Source: a virus (Duplodnaviria; Heunggongvirae; Uroviricota; Caudoviricetes). From it: a stretch of 7,254 nt of DNA. Made by a program: the position numbers and the translations under genes. Under the pieces are notes generated by a model that saw nothing but the letters and a program-made list of their open reading frames with translations, had not been told where the DNA came from and searched no databases. Location of the stretch: the IMG/VR virus record IMGVR_UViG_2778261509_000007; one strand, 5' to 3'. Position 1 is the first letter of the stretch, and the number at the start of each line of letters is the position of its first letter. This document shows positions 1 through 7,023 of the stretch, piece after piece.

Positions 1-115
1 AGAAAAAATAACGTTCACCACCGACCTCTGTCAGATCGATTTCCCAGAGCACCACCTGGGCTGACTGAGTGAGGCGTGTCGTCTCATGATGTGTTTCCTG
101 TGGAATATCCTGCAT
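1..115 (-). CDS. L: Minor tail protein L (lambda gpL-like), N-terminal 38 codons only; gene continues past the window start
   Basis: Minus-strand translation from ATG at 115..113 gives [38 protein letters not shown], open to position 1. This closely matches the lambda gpL N-terminus as I recall it (MQDIRQETLNECTRAEQSASVVLWEIDLTEVGGERYFF). The ATG shares one base with the TGA stop of M (TGATG), and the position after M matches lambda gene order. Not in the ORF track because it is truncated. Confidence 0.85.
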   Translation of the reverse strand, partial: MQDIPQETHHETTRLTQSAQVVLWEIDLTEVGGERYFF

Positions 116-453
116 CAAATCACCACTTCGTCAAACTGACACGAAAAATCGGTATAGGTGATATGTTCTGTCGCTGACCACGTTCGACACACCACTCTGA
201 TTTTTCTGTTAATACCCGGCGGGCGCCAAAAAAAAGATTTATAGCCTCCATGCCGAACTAGAAACAGTTCAAATGAATTACGTTCATTCGCCTCAACCCT
301 GAAATCACAGGTAAAAACACGCAGAGCATGATTAAGTCCGTTTGGGCTTCGTTGTTCATAACCATCGCCAAATCTTACAGTTTTTATCGATGGCTTATTT
401 TCTGTTTTCATTCCATCCTCTGGTAACCAGTAAAATTCTTCCGTATTAGCCAC
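115..453 (-). CDS. M: Minor tail protein M (lambda gpM-like), 112 aa
   Basis: ORF-track protein contains [10 protein letters not shown]...[12 protein letters not shown]...[12 protein letters not shown]...FDEVV, colinear with recalled lambda gpM (FRWKVKPGMD...VRFGDGYSQRAP...HGGWKSFLWTPP...FEQVV). GTG start at 453 with GGAGG about 8 nt upstream; overlaps the tape measure stop by 8 nt. Confidence 0.85.
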
Positions 454-3400
454 TTAACATTCCTCCATCACGGCGCATATTTAACAGAGTGCCCTGCACC
501 CGCTGATCAACCATCCCCATAAGTGCTTTTATTGCCTGAGGACCAATCTCTCCATTCTGGCCGTCATTTTGAATAGTGATTTGGTATACAGGTGCATAGG
601 TAATATCTCTGCCTCCATTACCACTTTTACTATTAATAGCTCTGACACCAAGAGAACCATCGGAAGTTCGCGTTAATGGCATAATAGCTTCCGGTCCAGC
701 CTCGCCAAAAACACCAGCTCCTTTTGCAAAAGCAAAAAATTGTGGGGAGTCATAAATACCGTTCGAATATGTACTCAATGACGGAGACTCATACACACCG
801 CCCTTTGCATTCGGAATAAATTTACTAATAGCACTCCCGATAGTTCCTAAAATCCCACCAGAAGAACTGTTATCAATGCTGTCGAAAATCCCAGTAATTG
901 AAGCCTTTAATGCAATTCGACTAAGATCCGAAATCACGGAAGTAGCGAAAGAACGAAAATTTGCCTTGCCTGTCGTGACAAAATCACCTAGCGCATCGGT
1001 CATCCCATCAAACATCTGAGTCGTGGTTGATTTTATCTGCGCACCGATATCCTTAGTGTCATCCAGCCAGTTATTGAATCCCTGGGAGGCACCACTAATC
1101 CAGTCTCCTGCCTGAATATCGAGCTGCTCGTTTTTCTGGCTGACAATTTCTTTTTCTCGTTCCAGAGCATCATTCAGAGCCTGCATTTTCTCCTGAAAAA
1201 CATGATTTGACATTCCACGGGATTTATCTGCATAGTCACGTTCAAGTTGCAGACGCTGATTGTTATATTCACGTTCAATCCGCAGTAATTCCTGCTGGCG
1301 TTGCTGATTTTTATCGCCAAACCCATAACCAGCAATCTGAATGTCATACCCCTGTTGACGATTATCAATCGAAGCCTGCAATGAATCACGCCATGCAGCT
1401 ATTTCGGCGGATTCATTGATTAGCCTGTTATTTTTTTCAATCGCAACATTTTTCTCCATCAACGCAGTTATTTCTTCCCGGTGTAAGAGAAGCGATTTCT
1501 GATCCTGGGTTAATTTCGATGACGGTCGTGACTCCAGGTCGGCAATCTGCTGACGCCACTTAACCAGTTCCTGTTCAGAGGAACTTAATTTAACGGTCAA
1601 TTCAGCTTGTGAACTTAGTAACGCATTCTGTTGATTCAGATGATCAATCATTCGTTGGGCAGCATCATCCGAATAACCTTTCGCCTTTGGTTGCTTTGGT
1701 TCTTTATAACGCTCATTTATTTGAGCGATAAGATTATTATATTCTTCCTTTGAATACTGATTCTTTAGCTTTTCCAGTTTTGCAAGTTCACTAGCTCTCT
1801 GCTGCTCCCGGGTTTGATATTGTTTTGAAAAAGCATCTGCTCTCTGTCTGAGTTCAATTCCTTCCTGTTGTCGCTTGTTGTAATCGTTTATTGATGAATT
1901 TAGTACGTCCTGAGCAATTTTTTCTGCTTGAAGTACGCCCAATTGCTGCTTTAATCGTGCCAGCTTTTTATTTTGAGCTCCGCCATCTCCAACGCCACCT
2001 AACCCGAAAACTCCGGGTCGGGTATTTTTTTCTATTTCATCAATTTGACGGAGAACATCTGAGATTTTTTGATCAAGGGAGGCCTCACGGCCAATATCCA
2101 GCATGGAATCCCATGCCCATTTTGCGGAGTCTGCGACAGCTTTCCATGCAGTCTCAAGATAACCAAGATTTTCTTTAATCTGGCTGGAACGTTGAATCAT
2201 TGAGGATGAATATGCTTCCGTCGCAATACGAGCAGCCTCCTGCTGGTTCCCTTCATCCTGTAGCGCCTTAATCTGGTTATAAGTCGCAAGTGTCAGAAAA
2301 TGGTACTGATCATTAAGTTTTGATATAGCACTGACAGGATCCTTTGCAATTTCATTGAAGTCATTAACCAGTTGTTCGGTTGATATTCCTGTTACTTCGC
2401 TCGTTTTTACTATCGCTGTCGTCACTTGCTCCAGCGAACTGCTCGCTACCTTTCCCGAACGCACAAGCTGTTTTAATACTACCGCCGCAGCGCCAGTTGT
2501 CGAATCAGCCGCATTCCCGGCACGTTGAGCTATATCGGCCAATTGCCCGCTGGTTGTCCCCAACTGATTTCCGGTAAGAATAAGAGATTTATTAAATTCG
2601 TCCTGCTCCTGAGAGCCTTTATAGTAAGCCAGCCCTAAGACGCCAACGGCTGCTGCGGCCAGGGTAAAAGGATTAATTAATCCCAGCACATAAGAACCTA
2701 CACCTTTGATCGCCGGGCCAATCCCACCGAACATATCTTTTAGCTGGCCGCCCTGCTGCATTAACACCATAAATGGCGACTGACCAGTGGACAACCCAAC
2801 AACAATATCCGTCATTTGTGCAGGCAACATGCGCATAGCAAAAGCCGTTTGTTTTGCCGACATTCCGGTTTTGCTTAATTGCGATTGAGTAACCTCAAGC
2901 TCACTCCGCATAGCACGAAGTTTTCCAGAAAGCTCCTCATACATTTCAGGAGAAAGCATCCCCTTAGCTTTTGCTTCATTGAGCTGTTTCTGTTGTTCTA
3001 CCAGACGATTAAAAGCAGTTCCGACAGGATCAAGTTGAGCAATCAGACGTTGCAAAGCAGCAACCTGTTCATCATGCGCTTTTGCTGCTTCTCGCTCTGC
3101 CTGAGCCTCTCCGGTAAGCTCTCGCCGTGTTTCCTGTATTTTTCGGCTATAATTCTCAAACTGAGAACCATTTATTTTCCCGGATGCAAACGCAGCATTA
3201 AGTTCATCCTGCTGTTGTTCAAGATGTCTTAGCGCCGCAGCCAGAGGGTCGATCTTGTCCAGCATTCTTTGAAAGGCCTGAGCCTGCGCTTCCTGCTGGG
3301 CGGCAGCAAGTTTTCCGGCCTTCTCGGCTTCTCTCTGCGCTTGCGCAACCCCGCTCAATTCCGCTGTAGTTTCATTAAGTTTACGGGAAAGAAATTCATA

Positions 3401-3679
3401 TTCTTCTTTATGAATAAGCCCTTTGTCGAAGTATTTCTTTAATTCAGAATAGCGCCGACCGACAGTATCAATTGCGGCACCAACAGGATCAATAGCTGCT
3501 TTTAATTTTGCGAGCGCGTTCTTCTCATCTTCTGTTGCCCTAGTCACTTTCCCTGCGCTATTTGCAGCAGTTGCCCCAGCCTGCGTCATTTTGACCAGGG
3601 AGGAGGTCAAATTATCAGCATTATTTTTCGCTCCAGTGCTATCAATAATTATTGCAAGACGTGAAGTTTGCTCTGTCAT
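446..3679 (-). CDS. H: Tail length tape measure protein (lambda gpH-like), 1077 aa
   Basis: Long ORF with a coiled-coil-rich N-terminus. Central segment [39 protein letters not shown] and C-terminus [16 protein letters not shown]...[10 protein letters not shown] match recalled lambda gpH ([39 protein letters not shown]; NNDGTNGQIGPAALKAV...MRDGGLFSG). ATG at 3679 with GGAG 7 nt upstream. Position between chaperone genes and M is as in lambda. Confidence 0.9.
2885..3523 (-). repeat. Three diverged tandem repeats of about 73-80 codons inside the N-terminal coiled-coil region of the tape measure gene
   Basis: Protein-level repeats anchored on recurring motifs: [24 protein letters not shown] (res 57-80), [24 protein letters not shown] (res 137-160), [25 protein letters not shown] (res 209-233). 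Each is followed by a G-x-(I/L)-xxxx-(F/Y)-xxx-S-(R/G)-K-(L/I)-xxx-(R/T)-x-EL segment and an AQAxREA stretch. The DNA is diverged, so this is not a recent duplication. Boundaries are approximate. Confidence 0.6.
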
Positions 3680-3694: not shown

Positions 3695-3722
3695 AAAAAA
3701 AGCCCCGCTTAGAAAGCGGGGC
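3695..3722 (-). terminator. Rho-independent terminator downstream of the Ail/Lom-like gene, just upstream of the tape measure RBS
   Basis: Perfect 8-bp GC-rich stem (3702..3709 gccccgct pairs with 3715..3722 agcggggc), 5-nt loop, then on the minus strand a run of 7 T (3701..3695). It lies 23 nt after the TGA of the OMP gene. There is no T-run on the plus-strand side, so it is unidirectional. Confidence 0.6.
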
Positions 3723-3745
3723 CAGACAACAGAAGAAAGGAATTA

Positions 3746-4282
3746 TCAGAAACGATAACCAATACCGGTCATCCAGGTACCAACTTTCACATCGCCCAAT
3801 TTGGTGTACTCATAGGATGCGTCAACTACCCAATTTGGTACAGGATTAAACTGAATACCAGCACCATATACAACCGAAGTCTTGCTTAAAGAGTCAGAGT
3901 ATCCCAAAATCGTCGCTTCAGCACGTCCATGCGCTAAACCTATTAAGCCATATGCACTGAAGTAATCATTGAAACGATAGGCTGGACCGGCAGCTAGTGA
4001 ATAGTAATCCAGTTTTTCATTTCCAATTTTAGAGCCTGCAAAATGATAATCGTATTCTTGATGTGTGTACGTAAATGAAGATGCAACGCCCCATTTATCA
4101 TCCAGCTCATATCGATACTTAATATTTACCCCGGAAGGATTCTCATCAAGGCTTTCTCCAGCGACTTTAACATGACTTTGTGCATAACCTAGAGAAATAG
4201 TATTCTGCATCAATTCAGCATTTGCAATGCCAGTTGCAAACAAGGCTGAAGCGATAATGGTAGTCAACACTGCTTTTTTCAT
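3746..4282 (-). CDS. Ail/Lom/PagC/OmpX-family outer membrane beta-barrel protein, 178 aa (moron, candidate virulence / lysogenic-conversion factor)
   Basis: N-terminal Sec signal peptide MKKAVLTTIIASALFATGIANA with an AxA cleavage motif. Motifs SLGYAQSHVK, NIKYRYELDDKWGV, KTSVVYGAGIQFNPVPNWVVDASYEYTKL...VGTWMTGIGYRF are colinear with the Yersinia Ail / Salmonella PagC / lambda Lom family as I recall it. C-terminal aromatic residue is typical of OM beta-barrels. ATG at 4282 with a GGTGA-like SD; TGA stop at 3746. Confidence 0.85.
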   Translation of the reverse strand: MKKAVLTTIIASALFATGIANAELMQNTISLGYAQSHVKVAGESLDENPSGVNIKYRYELDDKWGVASSFTYTHQEYDYHFAGSKIGNEKLDYYSLAAGPAYRFNDYFSAYGLIGLAHGRAEATILGYSDSLSKTSVVYGAGIQFNPVPNWVVDASYEYTKLGDVKVGTWMTGIGYRF

Positions 4283-4342
4283 AAAATCACCGCTATTTCA
4301 CAAATCATTGTTATAACAGCCAGAATTAATCTGGCTGGCAGC

Positions 4343-4372
4343 ATTAAAATATCGACCACATTTTATAGTCAA
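4343..4372 (-). promoter_or_regulatory. Putative sigma70-type promoter for the Ail/Lom-like gene
   Basis: On the minus strand: TTGACT (4372..4367), 18-bp spacer, TTTAAT (4348..4343), about 60 nt upstream of the ATG, within a strongly AT-rich 143-bp intergenic region. Found by eye only, not statistically tested. Confidence 0.25.
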
Positions 4373-4425
4373 CTATCAATTTCACATAAAACTATGTACA
4401 TACAATTAATTGCCAAAGCATAAAA

Positions 4426-5216
4426 TTAATTAATCAATATCCCATCAAAAGTTTTGGATTGAGAAACATACTGGTCATCCAGCGCAAAGATCACTGCTTC
4501 AAATTCATCACTATCTATCAATATTGGGTGTGCTTTTAAATAGTCGTGTATGTCAGATATTGACAAAGGCAGCGGAACCCCGGACATGCCTGCATAACGC
4601 CTAGAACGAGACATTACTGAATACGCATACAATAACTCACGGACAACGGGGTCTATTTCTGGCTCCAGGAGCGGCGGCAACCTGAGTTTTTCTCGCTTCC
4701 ATCTTGCCTTTTCACCCTTTTCTCCCCCGAACTCAGATAACCACCGCTGGGCAGCTATGGCTTTTTTATCGTATCCTGCTTCTGCTGCTCTTTTCCCTGG
4801 GCGATGCTAGCTGCTTCTGCAAGGAGCTGCCAGTACAACTCTGGATTCTGCTTAAGCAGCGCGATCCCTCGTTCTGGCGTATATTCCAGTACAACCTCAA
4901 CACCATCAACCAGTTCACCAACCCCTTTCCAGTCTTTCAGCAGATAACGAGCCGCATTATCAATGAGTAAATCATCAACAGAATCCACCTCGGAAACCTT
5001 TGAAATATCAAACTCCTTCGTTCCGACGTGCAAACTGGCATCCATTTTCTCAATGTGGCGACGGATTAATGCATTACGGGAGCGATACTGATCGTTATCG
5101 CTGCTTGCCACCAACAGTTTTAACCCGTCTACAGGTTTTAAGTCCTTCATTGGCGTAAACCAGCGTTCTCCACTGATGATAATTTTCTGATTAAGAATAA
5201 ACATCCATAACCTCAT
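4426..5216 (-). CDS. Tail assembly chaperone G-T fusion made by a programmed -1 ribosomal frameshift at 4767..4761 (about 262 aa); the 84-aa ORF 4426..4680 is its C-terminal part
   Basis: The frame of ORF 4426..4680 is -1 relative to G (codon first positions are 0 vs 2 mod 3 on the minus strand). I translated the -1 frame from the slippery site (KKAIAAQRWLSEFGGEKGEKARWKREKLRLPPLLEPE...) and found it open with no stop down to the TAA at 4428..4426. The TTG start at 4680 given by the ORF track is an artefact of ORF calling. Confidence 0.55.
4755..5216 (-). CDS. Tail assembly chaperone (gpG-like by position and frameshift architecture), 153 aa; real start may be the ATG at 5204
   Basis: ORF sits immediately after the major tail gene and before the tape-measure region, as G does in lambda. 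It ends with ...DTIKKP* with the slippery heptamer two codons before the stop. No sequence similarity to lambda gpG that I can recognise, so the call is by synteny plus frameshift signal. The ATG at 5204 (M5) has a GAGG SD 6 nt upstream. Confidence 0.6.
   Translation of the reverse strand: MRLWMFILNQKIIISGERWFTPMKDLKPVDGLKLLVASSDNDQYRSRNALIRRHIEKMDASLHVGTKEFDISKVSEVDSVDDLLIDNAARYLLKDWKGVGELVDGVEVVLEYTPERGIALLKQNPELYWQLLAEAASIAQGKEQQKQDTIKKP
4761..4767 (-). other. Slippery heptanucleotide A_AAA_AAG (X_XXY_YYZ) for -1 programmed frameshifting
   Basis: Minus-strand sequence ATA AAA AAG CCA TAG in the G frame; the heptamer A AAA AAG is the same as the well-characterised dnaX slippery site and is positioned like the lambda G-T site, two codons before the G stop. 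Confidence 0.55.
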
Positions 5217-5264: not shown

Positions 5265-6227
5265 TCAACTAATCGCCTCAGCACTGGCTTTTGCGATCAC
5301 GGCAGCCGGGGAGTTTTTTTTTCTGGTTATCGTAGGTGCTTCATCTGCTGCGGTAATGCTCAATTGAACCTGGATAATGTCGGTATTCCCCCCATCAGGC
5401 CATTCACCTGACACCTGAACCTTCGGGAAACTGAAAGTGTATGCCCCCTCTCCATTCGAAAGCGTGAAGCTGAACGGAACTGTTTCTCCAGTCAGTGTTT
5501 TACTCCAGATTTCCCACGCGGATTTAGACCACGAAAGCGTCACCGTACCGGACGGTGTAAAAGTAGTCGGAATATTTGCTCCTGCATAAGGCGAGCCAGT
5601 CCCGATACAACGCTGTGTCTGGAGTTTGTTATCGAACTGAATATCAAAACTGTCGATACAAAAACCGTTACCTCCGGCAACACCATTCAGGCTTACCGCT
5701 GAAACCTCCTTAAACGAATAGCGTAGCTTTCCTGCACTATCCACAGGTTCGCCTTTGATAAAATTCGTATCATCGGCCTTTGATTCCCAGTCCAGCCCGG
5801 CAAAGGTTACGGTCGCTGTAATATCGCCGTCGTTAGGGATCTGCATTTTCCATGAGCCAACCTGCGCTCCTCTGACGACAGAGGCAATTCCGACATCGGA
5901 CGCATAGGTCGCCAGAGAAAATGTTATTCGCTCATTCCCCATTGTCAGAGAATCGCCTGACCATTCCGCGCCGAAACAGGATGCAAGAAAATCATCATGT
6001 TGACCCCAGCGAAATTTGGTACCGACATCACCGCCGACATCCACAGTGCCAGACGTCGCCCCCTGAGCCATCCGGGAGCCGCCGATCTCATTATTTTCGC
6101 CTTTATTCTGGGTGGGTTTTACTCCCCAGCTTGTGCGTTTTAATAAACTCCAGTCACCACTTGCTGGCGTGGTGCCTGCAACTGTCTCCCGGATAAATGC
6201 CGAGATAACCTTTGCACCTGAACTCAC
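5265..6227 (-). CDS. Major tail (tube) protein, 320 aa (assigned by position)
   Basis: ORF lies between the tail-terminator-like gene and the G/G-T chaperone pair, the canonical major tail protein slot. GTG start at 6227 with GGAGG 5 nt upstream; TGA stop at 5265. It does not resemble lambda gpV as I recall it, so the call rests on synteny and size. Confidence 0.55.
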   Translation of the reverse strand: MSSGAKVISAFIRETVAGTTPASGDWSLLKRTSWGVKPTQNKGENNEIGGSRMAQGATSGTVDVGGDVGTKFRWGQHDDFLASCFGAEWSGDSLTMGNERITFSLATYASDVGIASVVRGAQVGSWKMQIPNDGDITATVTFAGLDWESKADDTNFIKGEPVDSAGKLRYSFKEVSAVSLNGVAGGNGFCIDSFDIQFDNKLQTQRCIGTGSPYAGANIPTTFTPSGTVTLSWSKSAWEIWSKTLTGETVPFSFTLSNGEGAYTFSFPKVQVSGEWPDGGNTDIIQVQLSITAADEAPTITRKKNSPAAVIAKASAEAIS

Positions 6228-6253: not shown

Positions 6254-6646
6254 CTAGAGCGCGCGATATGGAATTTGAAGATTAAGCTGGAACCAGCCAT
6301 TCTTTTCGCCAACGGCTATTGAGGAAACAGCCTGGTAACTGAGACGATCGTCATCCTGAAACTCAAACAGTTCCCGCAATTTATCGGCTGTCTCAGTAAT
6401 GAGTTTTGAACCAGAACCTGCGGGGACAAATAACTGAATAATGATTATCCCCGTGCGATAAACAACCGGCCCCGCGCCAATTTCATTAACTCCAGCCTGC
6501 CCGGGAATATTACTTAACCGCGCCCAGATTAACTTACCGGAAGGATCGAACGTTGGCCCGTTCGGATACAATACGTCTTTTCCATCAATAATCGTCTGTG
6601 CCGTCATTCTGGAAATAACCGTATTTCTGATTTCAGTAAACGTCAT
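6254..6646 (-). CDS. Tail terminator-like protein (functional analogue of lambda gpU by position and size), 130 aa
   Basis: 130-aa ORF immediately upstream of the major tail gene (lambda gpU is about 131 aa and occupies the same slot). ATG at 6646 overlaps the stop of the preceding gene (ATGA). Only weak recognisable sequence similarity to lambda U, so the call is by synteny. Confidence 0.45.
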   Translation of the reverse strand: MTFTEIRNTVISRMTAQTIIDGKDVLYPNGPTFDPSGKLIWARLSNIPGQAGVNEIGAGPVVYRTGIIIIQLFVPAGSGSKLITETADKLRELFEFQDDDRLSYQAVSSIAVGEKNGWFQLNLQIPYRAL

Positions 6647-7023
6647 TTGTAAGCCTGTAAAACACCATGAAAAGCGTTGGCATACACGCCAGTTGGCGCT
6701 TGTTGTGAATGACCGTTTTCAAGAGCCTCTGCATAAGGAAGGTTATTCTGGATATAAATAACCCCGTAATTTGCAGCTTTCGAAATAACCCCGATCCCAC
6801 GCTGAACAGCAATCGTACCGTTCGGATCCACGTTATCAGATATACCAAAATCGGGATGCTGTAACGACACCAGGTTGTTATTTCTGAAACGTCCGGTATC
6901 AACCGGAGCAGCAATATCAATAGCAGTAAGAATCTGAATAGCGATGTAGCGAATCTTCAGCCCTACATCTTCCTCAATCATCCCGGCAAATATTGACGGT
7001 TCTATATCCCATGCCTTTGCCAT
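6643..7023 (-). CDS. HK97 gp10-family tail completion / head-tail joining protein, 126 aa
   Basis: Contains the motif PVDTGRFRNNN that I associate with the HK97 gp10 family (D-T-G-R-L/F-R signature). ATG at 7023 preceded by AAGGAG; stop overlaps the next gene start (ATGA at 6646..6643). Sits in the lambda gpZ-equivalent slot. Confidence 0.55.
   Translation of the reverse strand: MAKAWDIEPSIFAGMIEEDVGLKIRYIAIQILTAIDIAAPVDTGRFRNNNLVSLQHPDFGISDNVDPNGTIAVQRGIGVISKAANYGVIYIQNNLPYAEALENGHSQQAPTGVYANAFHGVLQAYK

What the first reader, a model, noticed from the sequence alone, without database searches (positions are those of the whole stretch)
4426..5216. Programmed -1 ribosomal frameshift (A_AAA_AAG) producing a G-T tail assembly chaperone fusion
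Two codons before the stop of the chaperone ORF the mRNA reads ATA AAA AAG CCA TAG. The heptamer A_AAA_AAG (4767..4761) is a highly efficient -1 slippery sequence. The -1 frame is open from this point for about 111 codons to the TAA at 4426, and corresponds to the separately called 84-aa ORF, whose TTG start is therefore probably not used. This reproduces the conserved G/G-T frameshift of dsDNA phage tail assembly chaperones and implies a fusion of about 262 aa made at low frequency. It also confirms the chaperone assignment for two ORFs that have no obvious lambda sequence similarity.
Basis: partly seen in the sequence, partly recalled or inferred. Interest (0 to 1): 0.5.

Follow-up and report, generated by a model that had tools for sequence, protein, structure and literature searches.

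The report
Phage tail chaperone G-T frameshift site
This is the usual "slip back one base" signal that long-tailed phages use to make a little of a longer tail-assembly chaperone, found here in a Rac-type E. coli prophage family where gene callers miss it; it is real but ordinary.

Summary
On the minus strand a 149/153-aa ORF (5204 or 5216..4755) ends ATA AAA AAG CCA TAG. The heptamer A_AAA_AAG (4767..4761) is in the phase needed for a -1 slip. The -1 frame then runs 111 codons to TAA 4428..4426.

In 115 related loci (Escherichia, Klebsiella, Citrobacter, Pantoea, Mixta, Providencia, Erwinia, Pseudomonas) the homologous site is always an X_XXA_AAG-type motif: A_AAA_AAG 96, G_GAA_AAG 11, G_GGA_AAG 7 (lambda's own), C_GCA_AAG 1. 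An Acinetobacter phage has G_GGA_AAG at its junction.
- The preceding wobble base covaries with the motif.
- The variable codon position moves by -1 exactly at the heptamer.
- -1-frame protein homology starts at the junction, 27 codons before the TTG.
- No start codon is conserved.
- The fusion matches PHROG 313 (tail assembly chaperone) end to end.

The genes lie between tail tube and tape measure. No stimulatory RNA structure is conserved, so output is probably low. There is no sequence similarity to lambda G/T or to the known A_AAA_AAG chaperone ECs1801. E. coli K-12 ydaY is a truncated copy.

Verdict: a new, largely unannotated member of a well-known kind. Low interest.

The parts
4755..5204 (-). 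G: tail assembly chaperone ORF, zero frame, 149 aa plus TAG. An alternative upstream ATG at 5216 gives 153 aa.
   Evidence: PHROG 313 'Tail assembly chaperone', E 2.9e-46. Met1, Ile3, Arg14, Trp15 and Pro18 of the 5204 start are invariant in 19 homologues. GAGG lies 6 nt upstream of ATG 5204. Precomputed Pfam PF27119 on all homologues.
4761..4767 (-). Slippery heptamer A_AAA_AAG in X_XXY_YYZ phase, followed by CC. The zero-frame stop is one codon further on.
   Evidence: The homologous site is A_AAA_AAG in 96, G_GAA_AAG in 11, G_GGA_AAG in 7 and C_GCA_AAG in 1 of 115 loci. Codon covariation is shown.
4426..4761 (-). T segment: -1 frame, 111 codons plus TAA. It is reached only by the slip. G 4761 is read twice.
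   Evidence: Translation. PHROG 1189, E 1.3e-30. Pfam Phage_TAC_18 only below threshold (19 bits against 27). tblastn homology starts at residue 1 of this segment in Klebsiella, Erwinia and Pseudomonas phages. Alignment A1 has W7, E10, G13 and K18 invariant.
4678..4680 (-). TTG, the first start-type codon in the -1 frame (Leu28 of the T segment). Judged not to be a start.
   Evidence: It lies 27 conserved codons into the T frame. In relatives the first start-type codon that lies downstream of the junction falls 7 to 60 codons after it. AGG lies directly against the TTG with no spacer. PGAP calls no gene here.
4791..4797 (-). Second in-phase heptamer G_GGA_AAA, 30 nt upstream. Lineage-specific and probably minor.
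   Evidence: Relatives have GGT AAA there, which puts a TAA stop in the -1 frame. G_GGA_AAA is less shift-prone than A_AAA_AAG in E. coli (0.12% against 0.29% unstimulated).
5265..6227 (-). Tail tube (major tail) protein gene, immediately upstream of G.
   Evidence: Pfam Phage_tube_2, E 4.4e-31. PHROG 290, E 4.7e-111.
446..3679 (-). Tape measure protein gene, downstream partner of the chaperone.
   Evidence: Pfam TMP_2, E 2.3e-81, and Tape_meas_lam_C. PHROG 24.
3706..4464 (-). Inserted cassette between T and the tape measure gene. It holds a new 3' end of T (last 13 codons), an AT-rich spacer, an Ail/Lom outer-membrane gene (4282..3746) and a hairpin-plus-T-run terminator (3723..3701).
   Evidence: The window is collinear at about 96% identity with Salmonella phage SPF_0923 on both sides. 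This 759-bp stretch replaces 154 bp there. Ail_Lom E 3.8e-27. Terminator-like site.

Best explanation
This is a programmed -1 ribosomal frameshift of the lambda G/G-T type, in a tail assembly chaperone gene of a Rac-type siphovirus prophage of E. coli.

Inferred mechanism:
- Most ribosomes translate G (5204..4755) and stop at TAG.
- A small fraction slip back one base. This happens when tRNA-Lys occupies AAA in the P site and AAG in the A site of A_AAA_AAG (4767..4761).
- Both tRNAs re-pair with AAA. Reading resumes at G 4761 (GCC ATA GCT...).
- The slip adds the 111-residue T domain, giving a fusion of about 259 aa that ends at TAA 4426.

By analogy with lambda, the G part would coat the tape measure protein. 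The rare T domain would recruit the tube protein so that the tail polymerises to the right length. Neither protein would end up in the virion.

Shown here: the sequence anatomy, the conservation of the site, and the switch of coding frame at the heptamer.
Inferred: that the slip occurs, its frequency (likely between a few tenths of a percent and a few percent, since no stimulator is conserved), and the binding roles of G and T.
For: 1. Anatomy is exact.

2. Gene order is tail terminator, tube, G, T, (moron), tape measure, minor tail. In relatives that lack the moron, such as SPF_0923 and Gungnir39, T is followed directly by the tape measure gene.

3. G matches PHROG 313 'tail assembly chaperone', E 3e-46. 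The fusion aligns in one stretch over profile positions 13-248 of 258, E 9e-51. It also matches PHROG 8233 across the junction.

4. Across 115 loci from several genera, the homologous site is always a motif ending A_AAG in the correct phase.
   - The zero-frame stop lies anywhere from 0 to 35 codons downstream.
   - The -1 frame stays open for 100-124 codons.
   - An Acinetobacter phage has in-phase G_GGA_AAG at its G/T junction.

5. Covariation in 58 unique segments:
   - Lys-Lys is always AAA-AAG (39 of 39). Elsewhere in the same segments Lys is AAG 187 and AAA 114.
   - The preceding Val is GTA in 23 of 23 cases before AAA-AAG, and GTG in 9 of 9 before GGA/GAA-AAG. Elsewhere Val is mostly GTC.

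6. Entropy by zero-frame codon position:
   - Upstream of the heptamer it is 0.53/0.45/1.22. Downstream it is 0.40/1.07/0.51, so the wobble position moves by -1.
   - Downstream, the -1 frame has 0 of 42 sequences with a stop and 81% amino-acid identity. The zero frame has 40 of 42 with a stop.

7. The junction ...ET[VI][KGE]K | [AV][ILV]xAQxW is conserved.

8. A Providencia protein (P0032) is a direct in-frame fusion reading ...ETIKKVIEAQKW..., the predicted junction.

9. A_AAA_AAG and G_GGA_AAG have nearly equal measured shiftiness in E. coli: 0.29/4.3/39% against 0.28/3.8/43%. This fits their interchange in this family (PMC4066793).

10. The G/G-T mechanism and its wide conservation are established (review PMC5009743).
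Against: - There is no experimental evidence for this family: no peptide, reporter or ribosome profiling data.
- No downstream hairpin or pseudoknot is conserved. The alignment fold gives -1.7 kcal/mol. The single-sequence fold has z = -0.69. The local hairpin in the window starts only 2 nt after the heptamer and is absent in relatives.
- There is no Rfam match.
- Unstimulated A_AAA_AAG gave only about 0.3% in a reporter, so the yield could be very low.
- Some relatives have weaker motifs (G_GAA_AAG, C_GCA_AAG).
- Pfam membership of a chaperone family is only sub-threshold, for T. NCBIfam has no match.
- The AlphaFold model of G is too poor (pLDDT 56) to test the fold.
- The prophage in this host may be defective, so the site may not be in use here.
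Confidence: 0.9

Rival explanations
1. T is a separate gene translated from its own start (TTG 4680 or another internal codon). The heptamer in G would then be incidental.
For: the ORF listing gives an 84-aa TTG ORF. Several phage records annotate a free-standing short T ORF.
Against: The 27 codons upstream of the TTG are conserved as protein, with W7, E10, G13 and K18 invariant as far as Pseudomonas phages. They carry a -1-frame wobble pattern. In relatives the first start-type codon that lies downstream of the junction falls anywhere from 7 to 60 codons after it. There is no spaced Shine-Dalgarno before TTG 4680. PGAP calls no gene here. The annotated starts in relatives disagree with one another.
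Confidence: 0.04
2. The fusion is made by transcriptional slippage. RNA polymerase would drop one A in the A6 run, rather than the ribosome slipping.
For: The site holds six consecutive A's, and homopolymer runs can cause polymerase slippage. One database protein is a direct fusion at this point, which could reflect a one-base change in the run.
Against: Eighteen related loci keep the frame break at the same position with only three or four A's (G_GGA_AAG, G_GAA_AAG), which is too short for polymerase slippage. What is conserved is the codon phase and the P-site/A-site re-pairing pattern, including the wobble base of the preceding codon. That matters only to the ribosome. From my own knowledge, efficient slippage in E. 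coli generally needs runs of about 8-9 A or T.
Confidence: 0.04
3. The frame break is a mutation, a sequencing error or a chance arrangement. That is, a once-continuous chaperone gene is now a pseudogene, or two unrelated ORFs are involved.
For: The bare 7-mer is not over-represented in the window. The E. coli K-12 copy (ydaY) is a truncated remnant in a cryptic prophage.
Against: The same -1 break at the same codon is found in 115 loci from at least nine genera, including isolated phages. Both frames are under purifying selection on their own side of the site. The open -1 frame is seen in only 14 of 20,000 shuffles.
Confidence: 0.01

Closest known systems
Phage lambda G / G-T tail assembly chaperone frameshift (Levin, Hendrix & Casjens 1993; Xu, Hendrix & Duda 2004, 2013, 2014; as summarised in PMC5009743)
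   Same: Two overlapping ORFs lie after the major tail gene and before the tape measure gene. The second ORF is in the -1 frame and has no start of its own. The slip site is near the 3' end of G. There is no detectable stimulatory structure in this family; from my own knowledge, lambda's site also needs none. Seven relatives of this locus use lambda's exact heptamer G_GGA_AAG.
   Different: There is no detectable sequence similarity to lambda G or T (hhalign probability 0.1%). The heptamer here is A_AAA_AAG. The zero-frame stop comes one codon after the site. In this window a Lom moron separates T from the tape measure gene.
ECs1801 tail assembly chaperone of E. coli O157:H7 Sakai prophage Sp9 (cluster A_AAA_AAG_25, marked 'true' in Sharma et al. 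2014, PMC4066793)
   Same: Same heptamer A_AAA_AAG just before the stop (AGA AAA AAG TAG). Same position between the major tail and tape measure genes. Same host species.
   Different: An unrelated sequence family: BLASTP finds no alignment and hhalign probability is 0.2%.
ydaY (b1366) of the cryptic prophage Rac, E. coli K-12 MG1655
   Same: Direct homologue. It has the same C-terminus ...QDTIKKP and the same ATA AAA AAG CCA TAG. An intact 104-codon T frame follows in -1. Some phage records name the gene 'putative protein YdaY'.
   Different: The K-12 copy has lost its 5' part in a deletion and sits in a defective prophage. It is annotated as an uncharacterised protein. The T frame is not annotated at all.
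E. coli dnaX frameshift (A_AAA_AAG with an upstream Shine-Dalgarno-like element and a downstream hairpin)
   Same: Same heptamer and the same tRNA-Lys re-pairing logic (PMC5009743).
   Different: dnaX has strong flanking stimulators, reaches a high efficiency, and yields a shorter product. Here no stimulator is conserved and the product is longer.

Membership tests
G/G-T-type tail assembly chaperone with programmed -1 frameshift (long-tailed dsDNA phages) | A pair of ORFs located between the major tail (tube) gene and the tape measure gene | tested here: met
   Tube 6227..5265, G 5204..4755, T ..4426, tape measure 3679..446. A 759-bp Lom cassette intervenes here but not in SPF_0923 or Gungnir39.
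G/G-T-type tail assembly chaperone with programmed -1 frameshift (long-tailed dsDNA phages) | The second ORF overlaps the end of the first in the -1 frame and lacks a start of its own | tested here: met
   The -1 frame is open from 4806 through the G stop to 4426. The first start-type codon is 27 conserved codons into the frame, and its position is not conserved in relatives.
G/G-T-type tail assembly chaperone with programmed -1 frameshift (long-tailed dsDNA phages) | A slippery heptamer in X_XXY_YYZ phase within the overlap | tested here: met
   A_AAA_AAG at 4767..4761 in phase.
G/G-T-type tail assembly chaperone with programmed -1 frameshift (long-tailed dsDNA phages) | The slip site and two-frame arrangement are conserved among diverged homologues | tested here: met
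   All 115 loci examined have a motif ending A_AAG at the homologous site. There is wobble-base covariation, and the coding-frame periodicity switches at the site.
G/G-T-type tail assembly chaperone with programmed -1 frameshift (long-tailed dsDNA phages) | A fusion protein is actually produced at a low, fixed ratio to G and is needed for tail assembly | not testable with these tools
   This needs mass spectrometry, a reporter assay or genetics. The only indirect support is that a database protein from Providencia is a direct fusion with the predicted junction.
G/G-T-type tail assembly chaperone with programmed -1 frameshift (long-tailed dsDNA phages) | G binds the tape measure protein, T binds the tube protein, and both are absent from virions | not testable with these tools
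   Inferred from lambda (PMC5009743).
PHROG 313 (tail assembly chaperone) | Significant profile match | tested here: met
   G alone: E 2.9e-46, profile positions 13-149 of 258. Fusion: E 8.6e-51, positions 13-248 of 258 in one stretch.
Pfam Phage_TAC_18 (PF23812) | Score at or above the gathering threshold (27 bits) | tested here: not met
   The T segment scores 19 bits, E 0.0015. The best relative scores 20.7 bits. This is a hint only.
Lambda gpG / gpT sequence families | Detectable sequence or profile similarity to lambda G or T | tested here: not met
   hhalign probability 0.1% for both. No Pfam hit to lambda-type G or T families.
Tail assembly chaperone fold | Predicted structure resembles solved tail chaperones | tested here: inconclusive
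   AlphaFold2 model of G has mean pLDDT 55.9, too poor for a fold search. No PDB sequence relative was found.
Stimulated frameshift cassettes (dnaX / IS3 type) | A conserved downstream hairpin or pseudoknot 5-9 nt after the heptamer, or a spaced upstream Shine-Dalgarno-like element | tested here: not met
   Consensus fold of 15 relatives is -1.7 kcal/mol with 5 weak pairs. Per-sequence folds differ from one another. Rfam gives nothing. An AGGA lies 6 nt upstream in enterobacterial members but is absent in the Pseudomonas members.

The most novel reading that the evidence does not exclude
The window's lineage may have two working slip sites. A synonymous GGT-to-GGA change at 4797..4791 created a second in-phase heptamer (G_GGA_AAA). 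The same change removed the -1-frame TAA that closes that frame in relatives. Two G-T isoforms would then be made, differing in 10 residues at the junction (EQQKQDTIKK against RAAEAGYDKK), and the G-T:G ratio would be raised. Separately, the Lom cassette has replaced the last 13 residues of T, which would mean that the C-terminal tail of T is dispensable.
Probability: 0.12. Interest if true: 0.25.

Novelty: new member of a known kind. Interest (0 to 1): 0.2.

Why it matters
The value is mainly for annotation. This chaperone family is common: about 1,070 of 5,426 complete E. coli genomes carry a copy, and it occurs in Klebsiella, Citrobacter, Providencia and Pseudomonas prophages. In the records examined it is labelled 'hypothetical protein' or 'YdaY' almost everywhere, and 'putative tail assembly chaperone' in a few phage records. 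In the RefSeq records inspected, G is given a truncated start in strain RM10740, and T and the frameshift are not annotated at all. The same holds for E. coli K-12 MG1655, where an intact T frame sits unannotated after ydaY.

Recognising the pair fixes the function of two ORFs. It also gives a clean natural series of interchangeable heptamers (A_AAA_AAG, G_GGA_AAG, G_GAA_AAG) at one homologous site, which could be used to calibrate frameshift predictors.

It does not change what is known about frameshifting or tail assembly.

Tried and rejected
- **Downstream stimulatory RNA.**
  - A long-range 17-bp pairing in the window (fold -33.4 kcal/mol) is not better than shuffles (z = -0.69).
  - Neither it nor the local hairpin is kept in relatives.
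  - Rejected as a conserved element.
- **Rfam scan of the whole window.** Nothing found.
- **Structure route.** AlphaFold2 on a 19-sequence alignment of G gave pLDDT 56, so no fold search was run. A PDB sequence search gave only a chance hit (E 1.7).
- **Pfam and NCBIfam.**
  - The local Pfam copy gives nothing for G and only a sub-threshold Phage_TAC_18 hit for T.
  - NCBIfam gives nothing.
  - The precomputed tag PF27119 on all G homologues is not in the local Pfam copy, so I could not read its name.
- **Similarity to lambda G/T and to ECs1801** (the published A_AAA_AAG chaperone). None found.
- **Literature search** for ydaY or Rac together with a chaperone frameshift. No paper found in the held library. 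I could not read Xu et al. 2004, so I cannot say whether this family is in their list.
- **Plus-strand ORFs across 4426..5216** (88, 47, 42 and 52 aa). These are antisense to a conserved coding region. No search was run on them and nothing seen here supports them.
- **The ATG at 4703..4701.** It lies in the zero frame after the G stop and opens only 21 codons, so it was rejected as a start for T.
Full report
**What is in the sequence**

- On the minus strand an ORF runs from ATG 5216, or more probably ATG 5204, to TAG 4757..4755. It ends ...GAT ACG ATA AAA AAG CCA TAG.
- The heptamer A_AAA_AAG occupies 4767..4761. It is phased so that AAA and AAG are zero-frame codons, which is the X_XXY_YYZ arrangement needed for a tandem -1 slip.
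- Re-reading G 4761 gives GCC ATA GCT GCC CAG CGG TGG..., that is AIAAQRW.... The frame stays open for 111 codons to TAA 4428..4426.
- The 84-aa TTG ORF in the ORF list is the distal three quarters of that frame.
- The fusion is 263 aa from ATG 5216, or 259 aa from ATG 5204. I prefer 5204: a GAGG lies six bases upstream, and Met1, Ile3, Arg14, Trp15 and Pro18 counted from it are invariant in 19 homologues.

**Is it more than chance?**

The 7-mer alone is not. It occurs four times in the window against 3.1 expected. The arrangement is.
- Only 14 of 20,000 shuffles of the 333 nt leave the frame open.
- Among the seven real genes on this strand, a long open frame after the stop occurs only where the next gene starts at an overlapping start codon, and here. 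Here no start codon is present.

**Context**

Gene order on the minus strand:
- tail completion protein, 7023..6643
- tail terminator, 6646..6254
- tail tube protein, 6227..5265 (Phage_tube_2, E 4e-31)
- the G-T pair
- an Ail/Lom outer-membrane gene, 4282..3746
- tape measure protein, 3679..446 (TMP_2, E 2e-81)
- a minor tail protein, 453..115

G matches PHROG 313 'tail assembly chaperone' (E 3e-46). The T segment matches PHROG 1189, which has no assigned function (E 1e-30). The conceptual fusion aligns in a single stretch to positions 13-248 of the 258-position PHROG 313 profile (E 9e-51). That profile therefore already spans fused products.

Other libraries add little.
- Pfam gives only a sub-threshold Phage_TAC_18 hit on T.
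- NCBIfam gives nothing.
- PDB sequences give nothing.

**Where it comes from**

- The 1-kb G-T region is 100% identical to prophages in seven complete E. coli genomes, for example RM10740.
- It is about 91% identical to prophages in about 1,050 more. In all, 1,071 of 5,426 genomes have a match.
- In RM10740, PGAP calls G as a 119-aa hypothetical protein from an internal start. It calls nothing for T and marks no slippage.
- Some phage records name the gene 'putative protein YdaY'.
- ydaY (b1366) of the cryptic Rac prophage of E. coli K-12 is a 5'-truncated copy. It ends with the same ATA AAA AAG CCA TAG and is followed by an intact, unannotated 104-codon T frame in -1.

**Comparative test of the frameshift**

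*The loci.* I gathered 115 related loci. They come from annotated phages, one genome per species and viral contigs. They cover Escherichia, Shigella, Salmonella, Klebsiella, Citrobacter, Scandinavium, Dryocola, Pantoea, Mixta, Siccibacter, Providencia, Erwinia and Pseudomonas.

*The site and the two frames*.
- At the position homologous to 4767..4761 the sequence is A_AAA_AAG in 96 loci, G_GAA_AAG in 11, G_GGA_AAG in 7 and C_GCA_AAG in 1.
- The zero-frame stop lies 0, 1, 7, 19, 20, 25 or 35 codons downstream.
- The -1 frame is always open for 100-124 codons.
- Where the first start-type codon lies downstream of the junction, it falls anywhere from 7 to 60 codons after it.
- An Acinetobacter phage whose T is only about 42% identical has an in-phase G_GGA_AAG at its junction.

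*Codon usage in 58 unique segments*.
- The Lys-Lys pair is always AAA-AAG (39 of 39). Elsewhere in the same segments AAG is the commoner Lys codon (187 against 114).
- The wobble base of the preceding codon tracks the motif. Val is GTA in 23 of 23 cases before AAA-AAG and GTG in 9 of 9 before GGA/GAA-AAG. Elsewhere Val is mostly GTC.
- This is selection on the nucleotide pattern a slipping ribosome needs, not on the protein.

*Codon-position periodicity in 42 unique enterobacterial segments*.
- Entropy by zero-frame codon position is 0.53/0.45/1.22 in the 54 nt upstream of the heptamer.
- It is 0.40/1.07/0.51 in the 80 nt downstream, so the wobble position moves back by one base exactly at the heptamer.
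- Downstream, no sequence has a stop in the -1 frame, while 40 of 42 have one in the zero frame.

*The junction as protein.*
- Homology in the -1 frame starts at the first residue after the slip, in Klebsiella, Erwinia and Pseudomonas phages.
- That is 27 codons before the TTG of the window.
- One Providencia database protein is a direct in-frame fusion reading ...ETIKKVIEAQKW..., the predicted junction.

**Stimulators and expected level**

I found no conserved stimulator.
- The best fold of the 100 nt after the site is no better than shuffles (z = -0.69).
- The local hairpin begins two bases after the heptamer and is not kept in relatives.
- The consensus fold of 15 relatives is -1.7 kcal/mol.
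- Rfam finds nothing.
- The heptamer is followed by CC in most members. The review of Atkins et al. cites CC as the most shift-prone 3' context for A_AAA_AAG in E. coli (PMC5009743).

Sharma et al. measured the following frameshift levels without a stimulator, with the IS911 stimulator and with the IS3 stimulator (PMC4066793, Table S3).

| Heptamer | No stimulator | IS911 | IS3 |
|---|---|---|---|
| A_AAA_AAG | 0.29% | 4.3% | 39% |
| G_GGA_AAG | 0.28% | 3.8% | 43% |

The two motifs are functionally equivalent, which fits their interchange in this family. The level here should be low, as the G/G-T system requires. 'Highly efficient' in the finding should be read as 'among the most shift-prone heptamers', not as a high yield.

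**Mechanism**

- Shown: the anatomy, the conserved motif, and the frame switch of purifying selection.
- Inferred from established knowledge of lambda (Levin et al. 1993; Xu et al. 2004, 2013, 2014, as summarised in PMC5009743):
  - tRNA-Lys in the P and A sites re-pairs one base back.
  - A small fraction of ribosomes makes G-T.
  - G coats the tape measure protein, and the T domain recruits the tube protein.
- None of this has been tested for this family.

**Rivals**

- Independent initiation of T. This is contradicted by the conserved 27 codons upstream of the TTG, the lack of a conserved start, and the missing ribosome-binding site.
- Transcriptional slippage on A6. This is contradicted by relatives that keep the break with only three or four A's, and by conservation of codon phase.
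- Pseudogene, sequencing error or chance. These are excluded by the breadth of conservation.

**Comparison with what is known**

- It works like lambda G/G-T but is not a sequence relative of it (hhalign probability 0.1%).
- E. coli already has a published tail-chaperone cluster with A_AAA_AAG: ECs1801 of Sakai prophage Sp9, cluster A_AAA_AAG_25 in Sharma et al..
- I checked that protein and it is unrelated to this G (no BLASTP alignment; hhalign 0.2%). It has the same design (AGA AAA AAG TAG).
- In the held library I found no paper that links ydaY or Rac to a chaperone frameshift.
- I could not read Xu et al. 2004 to see whether this family is listed there.

**Verdict**

The finding is a correct call of an ordinary, well-understood device in a sequence family where it is not annotated. 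It is a new member of a known kind and of low interest. Its value is in annotation, including for E. coli K-12.

Noticed in passing
window 3706..4464 (minus strand): A 759-bp cassette sits between T and the tape measure gene, where Salmonella phage SPF_0923 has 154 bp. It carries an Ail/Lom outer-membrane gene (4282..3746), an AT-rich upstream spacer and a strong hairpin-plus-T-run terminator (3723..3701). Flanks on both sides are about 96% identical. The cassette also replaces the last 13 codons of T (...DDQYVSQSKTFDGILIN against ...DDQYFQEQCV). It looks like a moron, in an unusual place inside the tail operon.
   Followed up: partly
[quoted passage not shown]: A run of nine A's (ACC AGA AAA AAA AAC) forms in-phase A_AAA_AAA and A_AAA_AAC heptamers. 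A -1 shift here would give a short alternative C-terminus that stops before the normal stop. The run is kept in the close relative SPF_0923 but was not found in the Klebsiella, Erwinia or Flyfo phage loci scanned. It may be only a slippage-prone or error-prone homopolymer.
   Followed up: partly
L120 (E. coli K-12 MG1655, NC_000913.3 1425621..1426289): ydaY (b1366) of the cryptic Rac prophage is a 5'-truncated copy of this chaperone gene with the same A_AAA_AAG CCA TAG ending. The 104-codon T frame after it is intact, but it lies in an unannotated gap between ydaY and ynaA.
   Followed up: yes
L001 (E. coli RM10740, NZ_CP043821.1), locus 4187..4546 and 1894..2277: In a genome whose G-T region is 100% identical, PGAP starts G at an internal codon (119 aa) and so loses the conserved N-terminus. 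It does not call T. The head-tail gene just beyond the window's right end is labelled 'glutamate 5-kinase' and flagged with an internal stop (TAT to TAA relative to SPF_0923). The prophage may therefore be defective.
   Followed up: partly
window 4791..4797 (minus strand): A second in-phase heptamer, G_GGA_AAA, lies 30 nt upstream of the main site. It is seen only in the window and its near-identical copies; the other relatives inspected do not have it. Relatives such as SPF_0923 and the Klebsiella phage have GGT AAA or GGT AAG, which puts a TAA stop in the -1 frame.
   Followed up: partly
proteins P0001, P0002, P0017, P0019, P0044: Database homologues include natural deletion or fusion variants. 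One (P0001) has a deletion that joins G to T in frame upstream of the heptamer. Others have the 3' part of G fused to ParB-like or terminase-like N-termini. This is the kind of decay seen in Rac-type cryptic prophages.
   Followed up: no
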